DNA from: a virus
Reading direction: 5' to 3' (one strand)
UHGV virus genome: UHGV-0147372
DNA: 26,706 nucleotides
A program made the translations under genes and the position numbers. Under the pieces are notes generated by a model, which worked only from the letters and a program-made list of their open reading frames with translations, made no database searches and was not told where the DNA came from. This document shows, one piece after another, positions 16,330-26,102 of the stretch; within the stretch, counting starts at the first letter, position 1; each line of letters begins with the position of its first letter.

Positions 16330-18702
16330 TTAATACAGGTTTCGCCACTTATCATCTTCCTGCAAACGCTGGTTCCGATAGAAGATACGCAGGCCTGCTC
16401 CTGACGGAATACTGCCGCCGCGAAGGAGTAAATCGACCTCTTTCTCGCTACCATCAAATCCTCTGGACTTCAGCTCATAGACGAGCTGCTGTCGCTGATG
16501 GTCTGTAATTCGCTGTTTGTAGTCTTTACGCCGTTTCGGTTTAACCAGGCGTAACCTTGCTGCCAGTTCCCGGCGCTCTTTTTTGCTCATACTGTGCAGG
16601 TAATCGTGCAACTGCTTGTCATCCATGCGGGTAATGTCCGTTCTGGTGCCCCCATCAGCTGATTTATCTTTCTCCTGTTGGTTCAAATTTTCAGCAAGGG
16701 GACAGTTATTGCCACGAGTCCAAGGGGCGCAAGCGCCCTGGTCGGCTGCCGCCTCCTGAACGTCAACGGCCTTACGAACCATTTTCCACTTCACGGCATG
16801 AGTGCAGATCTTGCCCTCTGCAATAGGTGACCAGATGCCATAAATACGAATGCCGTGATCGCCATAGGCGGTCGGCTCTTCGTTGATTTCATAAGCAGTT
16901 CTGATGAGGTGATATTTGCGGGGAACCAGTACGCCACCCTGCTTCATGATGTAGGTGGCAAAACAACCAGCATCAGCAGCAGCCAGAATGGCATCAAGGC
17001 GCGGGTTATCCAGTACCGGCGCACCTGCTTTTTTGTCCCCCTGTTGCCTTGCCGCCTGACCAGCCAGCAATCGCAGTTCACGGTAAGCCTGACGCCCCGG
17101 AATGCCAAAGAAGCGGAATTGCTGAACACGATGCAGAGACGCCCAAGCATTAACGTATTCAGCATTATCACGCAGGGATTTCCCCGTTTCCTTGCTGATC
17201 TCGCCAGCCAGACCACGCCCGTCAATGTTCTTACTGATGTATTTCGCGATGTAGCTTGTTGGCGTACCTTTGCGCGGGTTAATCAACTCAGACTTAAAGC
17301 GCGGCCCAGTGTTATTGCCCAGCTCCTCGCGGTCTTCACGGATGGCAAACTTACGCAGTAATGCAGTGATGGTGCGGCGGTCTTTTTTGCGCATAAAACA
17401 CAACAGGTGCCAGTGAACTGTACCGTCATGATGCGGCTCAGCCACCCGCACGCCATACCACCGCAATCCGGCTTTGTGCATCGCCTTACGAAATGCAGCA
17501 AACATGCCGACCAGATAATCACTGCTTTGTCTTACCGTCGCATTTGTCCAGGTTGGGTTGGGCCTGCCGTTATTTAGCGTGGAATGGAAACGTGACGGAC
17601 AGGTGATGGTGTAGAAAACGGCGCAGTCACCGCGCATTTCCGCGATAAGCTCCAGACCTTTAACACAGGCCATCATCTCATTGCGGCGATGCGCAGGGTT
17701 GCTGCTGCTGGCGTTTACCACATCCTCCATGTCCAGCGTGTCGCCGTCTTCGTTCACCAGTTCATGAGAACGGAAAAACTCCAGCGACTTACGGCGCTGC
17801 TCACGTTTATGCATCACGGCTTCATAGCTGACATAGGGAGATGCTTTTTTGCTGACCAGGCAAACAGCACGCAACTGCTCTTCCCGCCATTCGCAACGCA
17901 TCTTCCATAATTTCCGGTACCACCAGTCGGCGCACAACATACGCGCCAGCGAACCCGGAATGAGTTCATAGGGCACGGGTTTACGGCGGTTTCTTTTCCG
18001 GCGGAGTTGCTCAAACGCAGGCGGTATGACATCCAGTCGCAGGGTTTCTGCTGCCACCTTTTCCCATGTCTTGCGGATTTCTTCTGGCTTAACGTCATCG
18101 GTGGCATACAAATCGCCACAAGCTGCATCAAGGCACATGCTCATATGCGCAGCAACAAGGGTGGACAGGCGTTTCACCTGATCCTGACTCATTTCAGGCA
18201 GAATCAGCAGGCCGTCCAGCCCTTCATGGCTTGCCATAAAGCGAAAAGAAGTGGATAGCTGACTGTCGCGCACATGCTCCAGCCGTTCCAGACATGGCTT
18301 AATCGTCTCACGCAAATAGCGGGAATAAGCCTTTGGCCTGCCAAGGCTGCTGAAGTATTCAATACGTTGCATCAGCGGCTTGCTGATATGGGAAGGCTGG
18401 GCATTGACGTCCGCCAGAATGACCATATCTGGATTAAAACGCTGCTGCTCATGCGCCAGCTTTGCCCGACTAATGAGCTTATCCTGCTCCATTTCGCGCT
18501 GGACAGGATCACGGGATTCATTAAAGAAATAACGCTCCCAGACCTGATCACTCAGTACCTCGCGGCGCAGGTGTTCCTGCTCGTTATCGGCAGCGTACAG
18601 AGCGATCAGGTTTGAAAGCGCAGAAACTGAAGATTGCTCTTCTGTCTCTACGTAAGGATTGATTGCTTTTTTCTCAGCATTCCAGGAATAGCTGTAGTTC
18701 AT
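16330..18702 (-). CDS. A: Replication initiation endonuclease gpA (rolling-circle initiator)
   Basis: 790 aa; P2/186 gene A size class and position at the end of the early operon. Confidence 0.88.
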
Positions 18703-19532
18703 TACGCAATCTCCAGTTCGAGCTGTGAAGGCTGCAAACCATTCGACAGCCAGTCAGAAACTGAAGGTGGGCGAACAGCTTCAATTGCACCTTTTAAAAT
18801 TGCGCAACGGTTTTTCAGAATGACAGCTTTCAGCTCCTTTTCCGTCAGATTGCGCGAATACTCAGCCTCCTGAATAGCCCGCGTAAGCTCAGGATATTTG
18901 CTATTAAATTTGGGGACATTGCAGGCAAGATTTGTACTGTCGGCAGTCGCCAGTGGGTAATTTCCCAACACACGACCGTCAAGCATGCGCAAACCATGAA
19001 CAGCTGTTTTGAAATTGTGTCGGCAATAAATTGCTTCAAAAGCGTCCTGCATACGACGATGCCAGTGCGCAGTTCTAATAGCCGCATATTCACCAGACGA
19101 TCCAAAGCAGACACGAGGCCATTCACGACATAGCTCGATAAGCCGATCGATTGACTCGTGCAGATGCCAGACGGGAGTTGCCTTCCCGTAGAACATTTTC
19201 GGAACTTCGTTTATCAGGGCATCATTGTCACGTTCACCTCCGTCCACAACATCAGGAATGACAAAAAAAGCGACCTTAGGATGGTAGTAATAGTTCAGGA
19301 GCCATTTATAAAAATCATTCCAGTTAATTTTTAGCCCACGCACCCATGCAGAAAATGCGCCGTTATCAATGCCAACGACCTGGGCGTGCTGAATGGACGC
19401 CGCAATCTGATCTGGTCGTACATAGGAGACGAAAGCACCAGCTCCGCTCACCGCAATACGATGAACGTCGCCAGCACTTCCCCAGACAGGCGTCCCATGG
19501 AAATGATGAATTCCGTGGTGCATTTCTTTCAC
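18702..19532 (-). CDS. TGT-fold (DpdA-like DNA transglycosylase) candidate; otherwise hypothetical
   Basis: 276 aa; motifs VGIDNGAFS (compare TGT LTDSGGFQ), FFVIPDVVD (compare IVMIFDEC) and FGSSGE (compare VGGLAVGE) in TGT order, with no zinc-binding C-terminus; ATGA overlap with Dam upstream and TAATG overlap with A downstream. Confidence 0.35.
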
Positions 19533-20383
19533 ACTTGCACCCCGAAAATAACAGTAGAGTCACGTCCCCTACTAAAATCGGCACTAAACCAATTAGCAGA
19601 TTTAGTGGCAATCATCTCTGTTGCAAATTTTCCCTCCCCCGCTGCAACGCCGATGCTGCGTTTCGCCCTGATGTAGTGGTGAGTGAAATTACGATAAAGA
19701 GACCGGGTCAAAGACGTGTCACTGTTAGAAACAATGACCGGATGTCCTTCAGATGCTCGATGTTCAAGAACGGATGCCAGGTGATACTGGTCATCTTCAG
19801 TGAAACCATCAGTGTGATAGCCGGAAAACGTACCGTCATACGGCGGATCGCAATACACCACATCCCCCGCCTTCAACATCGCCAGCGTTTCATCAAAGCT
19901 GGCGCAGATAAACGTTGCTCGCTGGGCCTTTTCTGCAAATGCGCGAATTTCTTTTTCAGGGAAATACGGATTTTTATAATTACCGTAGGGAATGTTGAAA
20001 TGCCCGCTCTTGTTATAGCGACATAAACCACGGTAACCGTGACGATTGAGATACAGGAAATATACCGCTCTCATGAAATCAGTAATTTCAGTTGAGTAAT
20101 TAAACTCCTGCCTTATGTTGTAATAAGCCACCTCCCTGTTTGCGATCTCAAATAAAACTCTGGCGCGAGATATAAACGATTCACAATCAGCGGCAACCTT
20201 TTTATAGAGGTTGATTAAATCAGGATTAATATCCGCAACCAGATAGCTGGGATAATCCGTCTCCATCATCACAGCACAGGAACCCGCGAAAGGTTCAACC
20301 AGTCGCGGGCCAGCAGGAAGATGTTTTTTCAGTTCGGACATTATGGCAGTTTTATTTCCCGCCCATTTCAGGATGGTGCTCAT
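19529..20383 (-). CDS. dam: DNA adenine methyltransferase (Dam family)
   Basis: Start moved to the ATG at 20383 ([11 protein letters not shown]...); motif [11 protein letters not shown] and motif IV DPPY present; ATGA overlap with the TraR-like gene. Confidence 0.85.
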
Positions 20384-22184: not shown

Positions 22185-22272
22185 GATGCAACATCTCCTA
22201 TTGGCTTGTGGTGAGCCGGTATTAATCGTGACGAAAACTTCACAAAACGGAGAATAGGTTCGCATAAAGAAT
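22185..22272. promoter_or_regulatory. Lysis/lysogeny switch region between apl and cI (expected promoters and operators)
   Basis: 88 bp intergenic region between divergently oriented apl and cI; candidate minus-strand TTGTGA -35; operators not resolved by eye. Confidence 0.4.
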
Positions 22273-23214
22273 ATGTCAACTAATAAAATCACATTTCGCC
22301 ATATTGAAGATCATCTGAAAGCCATGGTCATGCAGAATCGAGGAGGGCAAAAAGTCATTGAGAGAATACTCATGGCCTATGGTTTCAAATCACGCCAAGC
22401 ATTCTGTAACCACCTTGGTATTTCACAAAGTACAATGGCTAACAGATATGCACGCGATACCTTCCCTGCTGATTGGGTTGTTATATGTTCAATGGAAACT
22501 GGCGCATCAATCGAATGGTTAGCATTTGGTTTAGATGCTGAAGAAGGAGTGCCAGCTCCTTCGCCAGAACGGCATGCTGAAAAACAGTCTGCAGATGAAT
22601 TTTGCAATGAAGTTCACACCCCCACGATAAAGTTCGATAATGAAAACCACATGGATTTCACTCGAGGGGGTAAAGCAGCAATAGAGCGAATTGTTAAGGC
22701 TTACGGTTACAAAACGCGCCAAGCCTTAGCCGATCACCTTGGTATCTCAAAAAGCACATTAGCTACACGATACATGCGAGACATTTTTCCGGCAGACTGG
22801 ATCATCCAATGCTGTTTAGAAACAGGAGTGTCTCTCGAGTGGTTATCTTTTGGTAAGGGGCATTCCAATCAAACAAAGCTAAGTGGGTTGCTTACATTAG
22901 ACTGCTATGATCTACGTGACGGCAAACTTACTGATCAAAGAGAATTAATCGTTTCGAGCGAAATTTTACCTCAAAATTTAAAACATCCCTATATAGTTAA
23001 TTCCGCAAATGATTCATATATCATTAGCAAAGAGGAGTATCTTAGCGATGGTCTATGGTTAGTATCTATTAACGGAGAATTTACTTTTAGAGACATATTT
23101 AAACTTCCAAACAATCGCATCCGCGTTGAAAACACAAAATATAGCTTTGAATGCGATAAAGAAGATTTGGAATTTAATAATAAAGTTAAAGGAATAATTA
23201 GAAAAAGGGTTTAA
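22273..23214 (+). CDS. cI: CI-type immunity repressor with tandemly duplicated N-terminal DNA-binding domain
   Basis: 313 aa; two roughly 60 aa copies (KVIERILMAYGFKSRQAFCNHLGISQSTMANRYARDTFPADWVVICSMETGASIEWLAFG and AAIERIVKAYGYKTRQALADHLGISKSTLATRYMRDIFPADWIIQCCLETGVSLEWLSFG) resembling the 186 CI N-terminal domain, then a C-terminal domain. Confidence 0.75.
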   Translation: MSTNKITFRHIEDHLKAMVMQNRGGQKVIERILMAYGFKSRQAFCNHLGISQSTMANRYARDTFPADWVVICSMETGASIEWLAFGLDAEEGVPAPSPERHAEKQSADEFCNEVHTPTIKFDNENHMDFTRGGKAAIERIVKAYGYKTRQALADHLGISKSTLATRYMRDIFPADWIIQCCLETGVSLEWLSFGKGHSNQTKLSGLLTLDCYDLRDGKLTDQRELIVSSEILPQNLKHPYIVNSANDSYIISKEEYLSDGLWLVSINGEFTFRDIFKLPNNRIRVENTKYSFECDKEDLEFNNKVKGIIRKRV

Positions 23215-23216
23215 CA

Positions 23217-24266
23217 ATGAGCTTTACGAAAACTATTGAATTTGCAAACTATACCTTAAATTTTGGAGAGGACAAAGTTCTCTTAGATGCTTTTGATTGC
23301 ATTGTTTTTCCTTCATTTTTCGCACAAAAATACGTTAGAAAATTTAAAGATACAGAATATTTCTTTACTGACACAAAAATTATTACGTTAGATACTACAG
23401 ATTCAGATTTTATTGGTCCTATAGTTCCAACAATTGCATTGTGTGGCCGCATTATAAAAAAGACCATATTTAAACGAGATCAAATATTTCAAGATGGTCA
23501 ATTAATTCGAGATCACAGGACGCTAGAAAGTCACCCCAGCTCTATTTTTATTCTTATGCTTAATGAGCACAGATTAATGCTTTGCAAAGAGGTTTCTGGA
23601 GCCCCTACCCTAGAAGAATTTGAAAATACTAGCAAGTATTGCCTTGCACAGCGATATAATTCTTTTGTGGATTACGAAGTAAAAAAAAATAAAAGAATTA
23701 GAAAGAAAAAATCATACATTGATCGACTGTATAAAAAAGATATTTATCGTAAACTAGGAGCCCCCAAATTACGGGTTACCCCCTTAACAGACCCAAGATC
23801 ATTGAGCAATTTTGTTGAACTCTTTTCTGTTGTTAATAGATTATCAATTGAGTTATTGCCAACAAATAGTGAAAATATATCTCTTGATGGCTTCTGGAGG
23901 AAAATTGAACAAGAAAAAGAAGAACTTAATAGTAGTAAAGCTCAATTAGTATACACAAATAAAAATGAAGATGGTTTAAATTCTGAGGCCGTCATTCAAA
24001 AAACAACAAGTGCAACCCGAATGGCCAACTCTAAAGTAATTATAAGTGGTAAAGATGAACACGGAGCAAGGCTATCAGGGAATAATGATAGTTTTACTCT
24101 AAAAGCATCAAGGCCACAACTTAGTTCTGATTTGGAAAGAGCTGCTCAAGAGGCGTATTCTGCATTCACAGAATTAAAGGATGCAGGAAATATTATCATT
24201 CCAGAACGTGAAGATTATACTAAAATTTTTTCCAAGTTAACATCAATAATTTCTAGGTGGCTATAG
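23217..24266 (+). CDS. Hypothetical cytoplasmic protein (349 aa), AT-rich, co-transcribed with cI; RexA-like by position only
   Basis: Starts 2 nt after the cI stop; no recognisable motif; Lys/Asn-rich AT-biased composition. Confidence 0.6.
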   Translation: MSFTKTIEFANYTLNFGEDKVLLDAFDCIVFPSFFAQKYVRKFKDTEYFFTDTKIITLDTTDSDFIGPIVPTIALCGRIIKKTIFKRDQIFQDGQLIRDHRTLESHPSSIFILMLNEHRLMLCKEVSGAPTLEEFENTSKYCLAQRYNSFVDYEVKKNKRIRKKKSYIDRLYKKDIYRKLGAPKLRVTPLTDPRSLSNFVELFSVVNRLSIELLPTNSENISLDGFWRKIEQEKEELNSSKAQLVYTNKNEDGLNSEAVIQKTTSATRMANSKVIISGKDEHGARLSGNNDSFTLKASRPQLSSDLERAAQEAYSAFTELKDAGNIIIPEREDYTKIFSKLTSIISRWL

Positions 24267-24267
24267 T

Positions 24268-24873
24268 ATGAAATATACATTCAACCCAGAAGATCTGACC
24301 AAAGAGCGATCTTTGCATGATGTTTACAAATTAACTAAAAAAATAAAGGTCAATTCATTTGACTTTTATTTCACATTATTATTAGTGATATTATTATCTA
24401 TTAATGCTTTTTGTCTATCTTCATCACCAGAGTTAATTTCATCTATTAGACAATGGACACCTTTAGTATTCGGATTCACTACAACAACATTAGGTTTTTT
24501 AATTACTGGATTTACAATATTTGCAACCATAAATAAACCTGAACTTTTCCTTTCATTAATGGAGTATAAGCATCCATTATACGGGATAAGTTACTTAAAA
24601 TATGTTTATGGCGTATTTATGAGAGTATTTATATATTTCATATTTTGGTCTGTTATCTATCTTTTAGTCCTTCTTTTCGGGCAAGAAAATGGATTGGCTA
24701 CAAAATTACTCAGAGCCTTAATGTTTTCTCATTGCACTAAAGTTGTTGGAGTTCAAATACTATATATACTCGTAGGAAGCAGTGCAGTGTTCCTTGTATT
24801 AACTTTAAAAACTTTCCTGTTCAATATTTATGCTATGTTAATGCAATCTCTACGCTGGGAAGTAGAAAGATAA
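24268..24873 (+). CDS. Hypothetical polytopic membrane protein (201 aa, about 4-5 TM); RexB-like by architecture only
   Basis: Starts 1 nt after the stop of the upstream gene; several 20-residue hydrophobic segments. Confidence 0.62.
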   Translation: MKYTFNPEDLTKERSLHDVYKLTKKIKVNSFDFYFTLLLVILLSINAFCLSSSPELISSIRQWTPLVFGFTTTTLGFLITGFTIFATINKPELFLSLMEYKHPLYGISYLKYVYGVFMRVFIYFIFWSVIYLLVLLFGQENGLATKLLRALMFSHCTKVVGVQILYILVGSSAVFLVLTLKTFLFNIYAMLMQSLRWEVER

Positions 24874-24962
24874 AATTAACCTCAATGTATGAATCTCAAT
24901 TCATATACATTGACACTGGTTATACATACAGTAAAAATGCTCTCCACTGGAGGGCATTTTTT

Positions 24963-26015
24963 ATGGCAGTACGAAAACTCACCACAGGAAAATGGCTATG
25001 CGAATGTTACCCCGCGGGACGTAGTGGACGTCGTGTGCGTAAACAATTCGCCACCAAAGGTGAAGCTCTGGCTTTTGAGCGTCACACGATGGAAGAAACC
25101 GAAGCAAAGCCCTGGCTGGGTGAATCAGTGGATCGTCGAACACTGAAAGACGTGGTTGAGCTATGGTTCAAACTACATGGTAAATCTCTGACAGCTGGGC
25201 AGCATGTCTATGACAAATTGCTGTTGATAGTTGACGCTCTGGGCAATCCCCTTGCAACCGATCTCACCTCTAAAATGTTTGCCCACTATCGAGATAAACG
25301 CCTGACAGGAGAGATCTACTTCAGCGAAAAATGGAAGAAAGGAGCAAGCCCGGTCACCATTAACCTGGAGCAAAGCTATCTTAGTAGTGTTTTTAGCGAA
25401 CTATCCCGCCTGGGCGAATGGTCGTATCCGAACCCACTGGAGAACATGCGAAAATTCACCATCGCTGAAAAAGAGATGGCATGGCTTACCCATGAGCAGA
25501 TTGTTGAATTACTGGCTGATTGCAAACGTCAGGACCCAATTCTGGCACTGGTAGTTAAGATATGCTTAAGCACAGGCGCACGCTGGCGAGAAGCCGTAAA
25601 TCTTACTCGTTCACAGGTGACCAAATACCGAATTACCTTTGTAAGAACGAAGGGGAAGAAAAACAGAAGCATCCCTATCAGTAAAGAGCTTTACGAAGAG
25701 ATCATGGCGCTTGATGGGTTCAATTTCTTCACAGACTGCTATTTTCAATTTTTATCCGTGATGGAAAAAACGTCTATCGTGCTCCCTCGCGGTCAACTCA
25801 CACACGTTCTGCGCCATACGTTTGCGGCGCACTTCATGATGTCGGGTGGAAACATCCTGGCCTTACAAAAAATTCTCGGACATCACGATATAAAAATGAC
25901 GATGCGTTACGCACATCTGGCACCGGATCATCTGGAAACGGCGCTCCGTTTCAATCCTCTGGCAACGCTGCCAAGTGGCGACAAAGTGGCGGCAGCGGTT
26001 GGCATTACCCCGTAA
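24963..26015 (+). CDS. int: Tyrosine integrase (P2 Int family)
   Basis: Start set to the ATG at 24963 (MAVRKLTTGKWLCECYPAGRSGRRVRKQF...), aligning with the P2 Int N-terminus (MAIKKLDDGRYEVDIRPTGRNGKRIRRKF...); conserved LSTGARW.EA, HVLRHTFA and MRYAH boxes. Confidence 0.9.
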   Translation: MAVRKLTTGKWLCECYPAGRSGRRVRKQFATKGEALAFERHTMEETEAKPWLGESVDRRTLKDVVELWFKLHGKSLTAGQHVYDKLLLIVDALGNPLATDLTSKMFAHYRDKRLTGEIYFSEKWKKGASPVTINLEQSYLSSVFSELSRLGEWSYPNPLENMRKFTIAEKEMAWLTHEQIVELLADCKRQDPILALVVKICLSTGARWREAVNLTRSQVTKYRITFVRTKGKKNRSIPISKELYEEIMALDGFNFFTDCYFQFLSVMEKTSIVLPRGQLTHVLRHTFAAHFMMSGGNILALQKILGHHDIKMTMRYAHLAPDHLETALRFNPLATLPSGDKVAAAVGITP

Positions 26016-26070: not shown

Positions 26071-26075
26071 CATTA

Positions 26076-26102
26076 ACCCGTTTACATAAATGGGTTTTTT
26101 GT
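26076..26102 (+). terminator. Rho-independent terminator candidate downstream of int
   Basis: Stem ACCCGTTTA / TAAATGGGT (one G-U pair) followed by TTTTTTGTT. Confidence 0.5.

What the first reader, a model, noticed from the sequence alone, without database searches (positions are those of the whole stretch)
23217..24873. RexAB-like pair (349 aa cytoplasmic plus 201 aa polytopic membrane protein) inserted between repressor cI and int
Both genes are markedly AT-rich relative to cI and int and are tightly coupled to cI (2 nt and 1 nt intergenic gaps), so they should be expressed from the lysogenic promoter in every lysogen. That is the architecture of lambda cI-rexA-rexB (cytoplasmic sensor plus multi-TM membrane effector). 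P2 and 186 have nothing between their repressor and int. Neither protein shows a motif I recognise, so this is a candidate exclusion or abortive-infection module of unknown mechanism.
Basis: inference. Interest (0 to 1): 0.8.

Follow-up and report, generated by a model that had tools for sequence, protein, structure and literature searches.

The report
RexAB-type phage-exclusion gene pair in prophage
Two tightly linked genes sitting between the repressor and integrase of a 186/P2-like prophage encode a soluble protein with the fold of phage lambda's RexA and a four-helix membrane partner, so they are very probably an untested branch of the known RexAB/"DUF4747-CarolAnn" class of prophage-borne anti-phage suicide systems rather than something of a new kind.

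Summary
ORF1 (23217-24266, 349 aa) and ORF2 (24268-24873, 201 aa, four TM helices) are real genes. They lie 2 nt and 1 nt from their upstream neighbours, between a 186-type cI and int, in the most AT-rich stretch of the window.

- The exact protein carries a precomputed Pfam DUF4747 tag. The literature links that domain to RexA and to the validated Sbash and CarolAnn systems.
- ORF1 and ORF2 homologues were adjacent in all 23 loci examined (27-100% identity). These include copies outside prophages next to type I R-M operons, and copies left intact in decaying prophages.

Limits:
- No sequence method links either protein to RexA/RexB, CarolAnn gp44/gp43 or the validated P. putida RexABpp (PADLOC PDC-M53).
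- ORF2's relation to RexB is architectural only.
- Nothing has been tested experimentally.

Verdict: an untested, large sequence clade of a known kind of system, in a slot already described as a minor P2-family defence hotspot. Interest is moderate.

The parts
22273..23214 (+). 186-type CI repressor (313 aa) with a tandemly duplicated N-terminal HTH domain. It is the first gene of the presumed lysogenic operon that carries the pair.
   Evidence: Pfam gives Phage_CI_repr (2.5e-57, two stretches) and Phage_CI_C (1.3e-19). PGAP names it 'phage repressor protein CI'. The internal duplication aligns aa 22-86 with aa 130-194.
23217..24266 (+). Gene A: a 349-aa soluble protein with the RexA/RdgC fold (DUF4747-type). 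It is the presumed cytoplasmic sensor and DNA-binding component.
24268..24873 (+). Gene B: a 201-aa inner-membrane protein with four TM helices. The N-terminus (about 30 aa), the TM2-TM3 loop and an amphipathic C-terminal helix are predicted to be cytoplasmic. It is the presumed membrane effector.
   Evidence: Hydropathy and K/R distribution are. The AF2 model has pLDDT 81.2. The family alignment shows that conservation concentrates in TM2, the start of TM3 and the C-terminal helix. A homologue of this gene follows a gene A homologue in 23/23 loci.
24963..26015 (+). Tyrosine integrase, using the PGAP start (the longest ORF starts at 24885). It is the last gene of the presumed cI-A-B-int transcription unit.
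   Evidence: Pfam gives Int_N 6e-32 and Phage_integrase 1e-21. PGAP coordinates come from L001.
26075..26096 (+). Terminator-like hairpin followed by a T-run. It is the first such site downstream of cI on the + strand, apart from a weak one inside ORF1.
   Evidence: This is a consensus scan only and is not proof of function.
22185..22272 (.). Intergenic switch region between the apl-like gene (- strand) and cI. It presumably holds the lytic and lysogenic promoters that drive cI-A-B-int. This is an inference.
   Evidence: Gene positions come from the PGAP annotation of the identical prophage. A promoter-like site lies on the - strand at 22279-22251. No + strand promoter was detected by the simple scan.

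Best explanation
The two ORFs form an obligately paired, horizontally mobile two-gene cassette of the RexAB type (also called DUF4747/CarolAnn-type). The prophage carries it to protect its lysogen from other phages.

Gene A is a soluble protein with the two-domain RexA/RdgC fold. By analogy it is probably a DNA-binding dimer. Gene B is a four-helix inner-membrane protein with both termini in the cytoplasm. In this 186-like prophage the cassette sits inside the lysogenic cI->int transcription unit, so it should be made in every lysogen.

The proposed mechanism is inferred from lambda RexAB, Sbash gp30/31, CarolAnn gp44/43 and P. putida RexABpp:
1. An incoming phage produces a cue, either a phage protein or a protein-DNA/replication intermediate.
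2. The cue acts on A.
3. Activated A switches on B at the cytoplasmic face of the membrane.
4. B oligomerises or opens and collapses membrane potential or integrity.
5. The infected cell stops growing and the superinfecting phage fails to multiply (abortive infection).

Shown here: the genes, their tight coupling, the strict A-B pairing, the RexA-like fold of A, the 4-TM topology of B, the absence of terminators within the cI-int unit, and defence-type genomic contexts.

Inferred: expression in lysogens, DNA binding and dimerisation of A, the sensor and effector roles, membrane depolarisation, and any phage specificity.
For: Fold:
- The ORF1 model is confident.
- Its only significant PDB matches are the two chains of lambda RexA, at Foldseek E=1e-5 and 2e-4 with prob 1.00. 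The next hit is at E~0.1.
- The secondary-structure order matches RexA's split globular domain with an inserted dimerisation domain: an N-terminal beta-rich domain, an inserted alpha/beta domain, and C-terminal helices returning.

Family tag:
- The exact protein has an unmarked precomputed PF15931 (DUF4747) hit, and newer PGAP annotations name it DUF4747.
- DUF4747 is the domain reported in RexA, Sbash gp30 and CarolAnn gp44.
- 'DUF4747/CarolAnn prophage system' is listed as an immune operon class in PMC13373217.

Pairing:
- A is immediately followed by a B homologue in 15/15 viral loci and in 8/8 further loci at 27-45% identity.
- Gaps range from -14 to +11 nt in all but one locus (+136 nt in L056).

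Architecture of B:
- It has four TM helices with N-in/C-in topology. RexB, Sbash gp31 and RexBpp are described the same way.
- TM positions 33/66/120/159 are close to those of RexBpp at 31/58/117/156.

Context:
- The layout cI->A->B is the same as in lambda and CarolAnn.
- No convincing terminator lies between cI and int.
- Non-prophage copies abut type I R-M operons.
- The pair stays intact where the neighbouring cI and/or int are fragmented (L012, L024).
- The cassette is always more AT-rich than its flanks, even in a 68% GC genome.
- The cI-int slot is a described defence hotspot in P2-related phages.
Against: - No experiment exists for this clade.
- No sequence method links A to RexA: Pfam RexA gave no hit, and hhalign gave prob 2.6-2.9%, E~0.016, over the C-terminal ~70 columns only.
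- No sequence method links A to CarolAnn gp44 or PP_5643.
- No sequence method links B to RexB, gp43 or PP_5644.
- PADLOC's RexA, RexB and PDC-M53 models all miss both proteins, although they hit their own positive controls.
- The local Pfam copy does not reproduce the DUF4747 hit.
- B has no significant structural match (best E=0.35 in BFVD), and a 4-TM bundle is a generic architecture.
- Lysogenic transcription is inferred, not observed.
Confidence: 0.68

Rival explanations
1. The pair mainly serves the prophage's own lysis-lysogeny control rather than defence. [quoted passage not shown] By analogy, gene A next to cI would modulate the CI/Apl switch of this 186-like phage, with B as an accessory. 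This reading is not exclusive of defence.
For: The RexA fold is shared. The gene sits immediately downstream of cI. [quoted passage not shown]
Against: The same A-B pair occurs without any cI nearby. Examples are copies next to type I R-M operons (L051, L052), copies in other chromosomal contexts (L053-L058), and copies downstream of int (L011, L012). It pairs with repressors of different types and lengths (189-313 aa, 41-51% identity). It stays intact where cI and/or int are fragmented.
Confidence: 0.1
2. This is a superinfection-exclusion system acting at entry. The membrane protein B blocks DNA injection or a receptor or channel of incoming phages (Sie/Imm-like), and A is a regulator or chaperone. 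There is no cell suicide.
For: B is a small polytopic inner-membrane protein encoded in the immunity region. Prophage membrane proteins that block injection are common; the CarolAnn paper cites the Charlie example.
Against: The strict co-inheritance and translational coupling with a 349-aa RexA-fold cytoplasmic protein is not expected for a single-protein entry block. Validated relatives with the same architecture act after injection and cause B-dependent toxicity or membrane damage.
Confidence: 0.08
3. A is an RdgC-like recombination or DNA-metabolism protein that, for example, modulates RecA or replication forks for the prophage. B is an unrelated membrane protein that happens to be co-transcribed.
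Confidence: 0.04
4. This is a toxin-antitoxin-like addiction module that stabilises the prophage or island. B would be a membrane toxin and A its inhibitor. There is no role in phage sensing.
For: It is a two-gene, tightly coupled, AT-rich mobile cassette. The pair persists in decaying prophages. One copy lies near ParDE.
Against: In the validated P. putida relative, A overexpression activates B toxicity rather than neutralising it (abstract). The RexA fold has no known antitoxin role. TA-like behaviour and abortive infection are not mutually exclusive.
Confidence: 0.05

Closest known systems
Phage lambda RexA/RexB (Pfam PF15969/PF15968; PDB 8TWQ for RexA)
   Same: The gene order is repressor -> soluble A -> 4-TM B on the lysogenic transcript. 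A has the RexA two-domain fold and RexA is its top PDB hit. B has four TM helices. Both proteins are basic and have similar hydropathy.
   Different: There is no detectable sequence similarity for A or B. A is 70 aa longer, with a long helix at about 132-164 between the domains. B is 57 aa longer, with a ~30-aa cytoplasmic N-terminal extension and a longer TM2-TM3 loop. The host phage is a 186/P2-type myovirus, not a lambdoid. The gaps are 1-2 nt, against 112 nt (cI-rexA) and 15 nt (rexA-rexB) in lambda.
Actinophage systems CarolAnn gp44/gp43 and Sbash gp30/gp31 ('DUF4747/CarolAnn' class; experimentally validated)
   Same: They are two-gene systems with a soluble protein of about 370 aa followed by a 4-TM protein of about 165-178 aa. 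In CarolAnn the pair is directly downstream of and co-transcribed with the immunity repressor. They are linked to DUF4747 and RexA by HHpred. The A size is closer to ORF1 than lambda RexA is. A 165-aa Sbash protein (gp31 by length) had the highest probability and the highest TMt among the top-ten non-significant BFVD hits to ORF2.
   Different: No sequence similarity was detectable with my profiles or by tblastn. The hosts are Actinobacteria. The triggers there are specific phage proteins (Kita gp53; Crossroads gp132/gp141), and nothing comparable is known here.
Pseudomonas putida RexABpp (PP_5643/PP_5644; PADLOC candidate PDC-M53A/B; validated 2026, PMC12894663)
   Different: PDC-M53A/B HMMs do not hit the window proteins. 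hhalign gives prob 0.1-0.2% for A and 1.1-1.4% for B, the latter covering only the TM1-TM2 region. In P. putida two extra genes separate it from the repressor.
RdgC (recombination-associated DNA-binding protein; PDB 2OWL)
   Different: RdgC is a housekeeping chromosomal gene with no membrane partner. There is no sequence similarity. The context here is a mobile, AT-rich, defence-associated pair.

Membership tests
Lambda RexA family (Pfam PF15969 / PADLOC PDLC02339) | Significant match to the RexA sequence profile | tested here: not met
   No PF15969 hit was found for ORF1 or for any of the 24 and 57 family members scanned, at E<=10 and E<=1 respectively. There was no PADLOC RexA hit at E<=1, whereas lambda RexA hits at 9e-110. 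hhalign of the family against the RexA family gave prob 2.6-2.9%.
Lambda RexA family (Pfam PF15969 / PADLOC PDLC02339) | RexA two-domain fold (split globular domain plus inserted dimerisation domain; RdgC-like) | tested here: met
Lambda RexB family (Pfam PF15968 / PADLOC PDLC02340) | Significant match to the RexB sequence profile | tested here: not met
   No Pfam or PADLOC hit was found. hhalign against a 6-sequence RexB alignment gave prob 0.5-0.65%, covering 19 columns in TM2.
Lambda RexB family (Pfam PF15968 / PADLOC PDLC02340) | Small inner-membrane protein with four TM helices encoded directly downstream of the A gene | tested here: met
   Four TM segments are predicted. The gap to ORF1 is 1 nt. 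This feature is conserved in 23/23 loci.
Pfam DUF4747 (PF15931) | Match to the PF15931 profile above threshold | tested here: inconclusive
   The precomputed table lists an unmarked PF15931 hit (E<=1e-5) for the exact protein and for P0022. Five homologues carry the tag. Two recent PGAP annotations name the protein 'DUF4747 family protein'. My own hmmscan against the local Pfam copy returned no PF15931 hit for any of 57 members even at E<=1. A difference in model version is probably the cause.
RexAB-type / DUF4747-CarolAnn-type defence system (functional class) | Obligate two-gene module: RexA-fold soluble protein plus adjacent 4-TM protein | tested here: met
   
RexAB-type / DUF4747-CarolAnn-type defence system (functional class) | Expressed from the prophage in the lysogenic state | not testable with these tools
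   This is only inferred. The genes are on the same strand as cI, with 2-nt and 1-nt gaps. They lie between cI and int, with no convincing terminator before 26075. No transcriptome was available.
RexAB-type / DUF4747-CarolAnn-type defence system (functional class) | Confers exclusion or abortive infection against heterotypic phages, with both genes required | not testable with these tools
   No experimental report for this clade was found in the literature searches.
RexAB-type / DUF4747-CarolAnn-type defence system (functional class) | A is a dimeric, non-specific DNA-binding protein; B causes membrane depolarisation or damage when activated | not tested
   These properties are known for lambda RexA, Sbash gp30, CarolAnn gp44, Toast gp42 and RexApp/RexBpp.
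PADLOC candidate system PDC-M53 (= P. putida RexABpp) | Match to PDC-M53A and PDC-M53B HMMs | tested here: not met
   PP_5643 and PP_5644 hit at 8e-157 and 3e-72. The window proteins give no hit at E<=1.
CarolAnn gp44/gp43 - Sbash gp30/gp31 sequence family | Detectable sequence homology to gp44/gp30 and gp43/gp31 | tested here: not met
   hhalign gave prob <=0.13%. tblastn of ORF1 against 50,697 phage genomes finds only the 4LV2017 group. tblastn of gp44 finds only actinophages. The power of these tests is low (see the control).

The most novel reading that the evidence does not exclude
The window pair represents a fourth large lineage of a single ancient superfamily of 'RexA/RdgC-fold sensor + 4-TM effector' abortive-infection modules. 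The other three lineages are lambda RexAB, actinophage CarolAnn/Sbash, and Pseudomonas PDC-M53/RexABpp.

The lineage has at least 702 clusters at 50% identity. It moves as an AT-rich cassette between P2-family hotspots and R-M-linked defence islands.

The B components would be true but extremely diverged homologues. The recurrent weak TM1-TM2 alignments to RexB and RexBpp hint at this. If so, Rex-type systems would be one of the most widespread Abi classes, and current defence finders largely miss them.

A stronger version is that this lineage senses a cue different from lambda Rex and kills by a pore with different stoichiometry.
Probability: 0.3. Interest if true: 0.55.

Novelty: new member of a known kind. 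Interest (0 to 1): 0.42.

Why it matters
RexAB was the first abortive-infection system described, and its mechanism is still unresolved. Each additional validated lineage has so far been found by fold rather than by sequence (actinophages in 2019, P. putida in 2026).

This cassette is a sizeable, untested lineage:
- It has 702 clusters at 50% identity.
- The exact window protein occurs in 385 assembly blocks.
- It is carried by P2/186-like prophages of clinically relevant E. coli and Klebsiella, including Klebsiella phage 4LV2017.
- PADLOC v2 does not detect it.

If it is active, it would affect phage-therapy host range in these species. It would add a tractable E. coli-native comparator for working out how RexA-fold sensors talk to their membrane partners. 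It would also justify adding models for this lineage to defence-annotation tools.

It does not open a new category. Both the architecture and the genomic slot are already described.

Tried and rejected
Searches that gave nothing:
- Direct family searches of ORF1 and ORF2 against Pfam, PADLOC, NCBIfam and PHROGs gave nothing useful. The one exception was phrog_10040 (unknown function, 3.5e-9) for ORF1.
- phmmer of ORF1 and a 57-sequence profile against PDB sequences found no RexA.
- Pfam scans of 24 and 57 family members did not reproduce DUF4747.

Profile-profile comparisons:
- hhalign was run for A against RexA, gp44 and PP_5643, and for B against RexB, gp43 and PP_5644. I used the tool and then larger home-made alignments (166 A and 28 B sequences). 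All results were non-significant.
- A control showed these tests are underpowered. My RexA profile also fails to find PP_5643, although the published HHpred probability is 98%. I therefore do not read the negatives as evidence against homology.

Structure searches:
- The fold search of ORF2 against BFVD gave no significant hit.
- AFDB50 was not available.

Locus retrieval:
- The search for related loci with the diverse alignment A3 failed for lack of a conserved stretch. A1 worked.
- I tried to fish the P. putida locus with a primer-derived 34-mer in genome contigs, metagenome contigs and viral contigs. All three gave 0 hits, probably because of an OCR error in the primer. A 27-mer from another primer succeeded.
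- My remembered Sbash accession was wrong: KP027195 is phage Cosmo. The correct record, KP027201, was found via gp44.

Other:
- A Pfam scan of ORFs flanking the cassette in L019, L020 and L026 was uninformative.
- Cluster-name look-up of high-GC representatives gave no organism names.
- Promoter-like sites inside ORF1's 3' end could have been a lambda P_LIT analogue for gene B. I rejected them as evidence because the number of promoter-like sites in the region (15) equals the shuffled expectation (13.8 +/- 3.6).
Full report
**1. Observation**

ORF1 is 23217-24266 (349 aa) and ORF2 is 24268-24873 (201 aa).

The upstream gene (22273-23214) is a 186-type CI repressor. Pfam gives Phage_CI_repr twice plus Phage_CI_C. 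The downstream gene is a tyrosine integrase.

The gaps are 2 nt (cI-ORF1) and 1 nt (ORF1-ORF2). The gap to int is 11 nt if int uses the longest ORF, or 89 nt with the PGAP start at 24963.

The pair is 31.7% GC against 49% for the window, and it is the lowest-GC 1.66-kb stretch in the window. However, the low-GC tract already begins inside cI's C-terminal domain (31.6% GC).

ORF1 has no hydrophobic segment. ORF2 has four.

The DNA is 99-100% identical in 11 of 5,426 complete E. coli genomes and in the Klebsiella phage 4LV2017 group (Peduoviridae, Elveevirus). PGAP annotates both ORFs as genes. The surrounding genes are gpA-type replication endonuclease, Dam, TraR, Fil, CII/CP76 and an Apl-like regulator. 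These identify a 186-like prophage whose right end abuts host rcdA.

**2. What gene A is**

Direct profile searches were empty. Pfam, PADLOC and NCBIfam gave nothing, and PHROGs gave only phrog_10040 of unknown function. phmmer against PDB sequences found nothing.

Some RefSeq records call the protein 'DUF4747 family protein'. The precomputed table for the exact sequence shows an unmarked PF15931 hit. My local Pfam copy does not reproduce this for any of 57 family members. I report this as an unresolved discrepancy, probably due to model version.

DUF4747 is the domain that the Hatfull-lab papers found by HHpred in lambda RexA, Sbash gp30, CarolAnn gp44 and, weakly, Butters gp30 (PMC6426596, PMC6426606, PMC7542560).

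I predicted the structure from a 24-sequence alignment (pLDDT 81.6, pTM 0.82).
- Foldseek against 350,542 PDB chains returned two significant hits. Both are chains of the lambda RexA crystal structure 8TWQ (E=1e-5 and 2e-4, prob 1.00). The next hit has E~0.1.

The RexA structure paper reports that RexA is structurally homologous to RdgC (PMC11077077). The order of predicted elements fits the published topology of a split globular domain with an inserted dimerisation domain.

Global TM-scores are low (0.30-0.35). I attribute this to the hinge between the two domains and to ORF1's extra ~70 residues, which include a long helix at 132-164. I could not test this domain by domain.

**3. What gene B is**

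The AF2 model (pLDDT 81.2) shows four long helices at 30-50, 53-88, 109-137 and 155-200. The K/R distribution is 13 on the predicted cytoplasmic side against 4 on the periplasmic side. This places the ~30-aa N-terminus, the TM2-TM3 loop and an amphipathic C-terminal helix in the cytoplasm.

Family conservation concentrates in TM2 (LGFLITGFTIFAT), the start of TM3 and the C-terminal helix (KTFxFNIYxxxMxxxRWE).

There is no significant structural hit in BFVD (best E=0.35). A 165-aa Sbash protein, whose length matches gp31, had the highest probability (0.51) and the highest target-normalised TM-score (0.46) among the top ten hits. At E=1.7 this is only a hint.

hhalign against a RexB alignment built from lambda and five diverged RexB sequences was negative (prob 0.5%).

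**4. The pair is an obligate, mobile module**

- A profile of the A family finds 702 representative clusters (50% identity) at E<=1e-3 and 350 at <=1e-30. Almost all are 325-350 aa.
- In 15 of 15 IMG/VR loci (39-100% identity) the A homologue is followed directly by a 4-TM B homologue.
- In 8 further loci, representing members at 27-45% identity, the downstream gene again matches the B profile (E from 5e-24 to 7e-73). Gaps are -14 to +11 nt in seven of the eight.
- Ten of the 15 viral loci analysed show cI->A->B->int, but with different repressors (189-313 aa, 41-51% identity to the window's cI). Two have cI-int-A-B. Three have no cI.
- Two non-prophage copies lie directly beside type I R-M operons.
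- In L012 and L024 the neighbouring cI and/or int are broken into fragments while A and B are intact.
- The cassette is more AT-rich than its flanks in every case, for example 44% against 68%.

**5. Relation to validated Rex-type systems**

CarolAnn (KX557275) has repressor gp45 -> gp44 (370 aa) -> gp43 (178 aa), with overlapping junctions.

I recovered the P. putida RexABpp locus using a primer sequence from the paper's supplement. PP_5643 is 330 aa and PP_5644 is 188 aa. PP_5644 carries W25, F35 and L55, as listed for the published mutants.

PADLOC controls behaved as expected:
- Lambda RexA and RexB hit their own models.
- PP_5643/44 turned out to be PADLOC candidate PDC-M53A/B.
- CarolAnn and the window proteins hit nothing.

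hhalign of the A and B families against gp44/gp43 and PP_5643/44 was non-significant. My RexA profile also fails to detect PP_5643, even though the authors report HHpred 98%. These negatives are therefore weak evidence.

The TM positions of ORF2 (33/66/120/159) are close to those of RexBpp (31/58/117/156). They are less close to gp43 (35/58/106/137) and RexB (8/48/84/116).

On present evidence there are four sequence-distinct lineages sharing an A fold, a 4-TM B and A-then-B order. Three of them have been validated experimentally. The window belongs to the fourth, which has not.

**6. Mechanism**

By analogy with the validated systems, A is probably a DNA-binding dimer that is activated by a phage product or a nucleoprotein intermediate. 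B is probably the membrane effector, and its activation collapses membrane potential or integrity and aborts infection. The conserved cytoplasmic surfaces of B are candidate contact sites for A. This is an inference.

Expression in lysogens is inferred from four points. The genes share a strand with cI. The gaps are 1-2 nt. They lie between cI and int. The first convincing terminator-like hairpin comes after int, at 26075-26096. Promoter-like sites are no more frequent than in shuffled sequence, so I make no claim for an internal promoter.

**7. Prior knowledge of the slot**

Rousset et al. [quoted passage not shown]

A 2026 preprint counts integrase-primase (8%) and integrase-att (3%) hotspots among P2-like defence loci. 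Neither paper mentions Rex or CarolAnn.

A 2026 EMBO J paper lists 'DUF4747/CarolAnn prophage system' among immune operons regulated by CapK/CapS, often next to R-M systems (PMC13373217). That matches the contexts I found.

**8. Verdict**

It is now backed by fold, by strict pairing and by context. It remains without sequence-level homology to any validated system and without experiments.

I file it as a new, untested member lineage of a known kind. Confidence in a Rex-type anti-phage function is 0.68. The main alternatives are modulation of the prophage's own switch, an entry block, an RdgC-like role, and an addiction module. Each is disfavoured by the cI-independent contexts and the obligate A-B pairing.

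Noticed in passing
window 22273-23214 (+): The CI repressor carries a tandem duplication of the Phage_CI_repr HTH domain. Residues 22-86 align with residues 130-194 (64 aa, local alignment score 241), giving a 313-aa protein. From memory, phage 186 CI has a single such domain. Related prophages have CI of 189-313 aa, so both single- and double-domain forms occur.
   Followed up: partly
window 22873-23214: The low-GC tract of the cassette begins inside cI's C-terminal (oligomerisation) domain. That domain is 31.6% GC, against 43% for the N-terminal part. The recombination junction of the acquired block may therefore lie within cI rather than at its stop codon.
   Followed up: no
window ~18528-19538 (-), mapped from L001 1312-2322: A PAPS-reductase-domain gene lies between the gpA-type replication endonuclease and Dam methylase. 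In otherwise identical copies of this prophage (L047-L049) it is replaced by an unrelated 273-aa gene with no Pfam hit. This looks like a second variable accessory slot.
   Followed up: no
L046-L049: Prophages that are identical across the stretch examined (Dam to int) have at least two different genes beyond int. In the window, L046 and L047 a TetR-family gene (rcdA) and an MFS transporter follow. In L048 a Wzz-family gene follows.
   Followed up: no
L012 3273-4898; L024 4166-5221: In L012 both cI and int, and in L024 int, are split into fragments (apparent pseudogenes). The adjacent A-B pair is intact in both loci. This is consistent with the host retaining the cassette after prophage decay.
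   Followed up: partly
L051 590-5646; L052 1-5668: Copies of the pair outside prophages sit immediately next to complete type I R-M operons (HsdM/S, and HsdR in L052). In L051 a resolvase and ParDE are also nearby. This is typical defence-island context.
   Followed up: partly
window 24874-24962: The int start is ambiguous: the longest ORF starts at ATG 24885 and PGAP uses 24963. A promoter-like site (TTGACA-17-AAAAAT, 24910-24938) lies between the two, so int might also have its own promoter.
   Followed up: no
ORF1 (window 23217-24266) and homologues: There is a tool discrepancy. The precomputed Pfam tables give PF15931 (DUF4747) for the exact protein at E<=1e-5. hmmscan against the session's Pfam-A copy returns no PF15931 hit for 57 family members, even at E<=1.
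   Followed up: partly
Literature: PMC11181664, Table 1: A Salmonella Welikade isolate has a strain-specific 'DUF4747 family protein' gene (894 bp) followed by a 606-bp hypothetical gene. That is exactly the length of ORF2, so the same cassette is probably present there.
   Followed up: no
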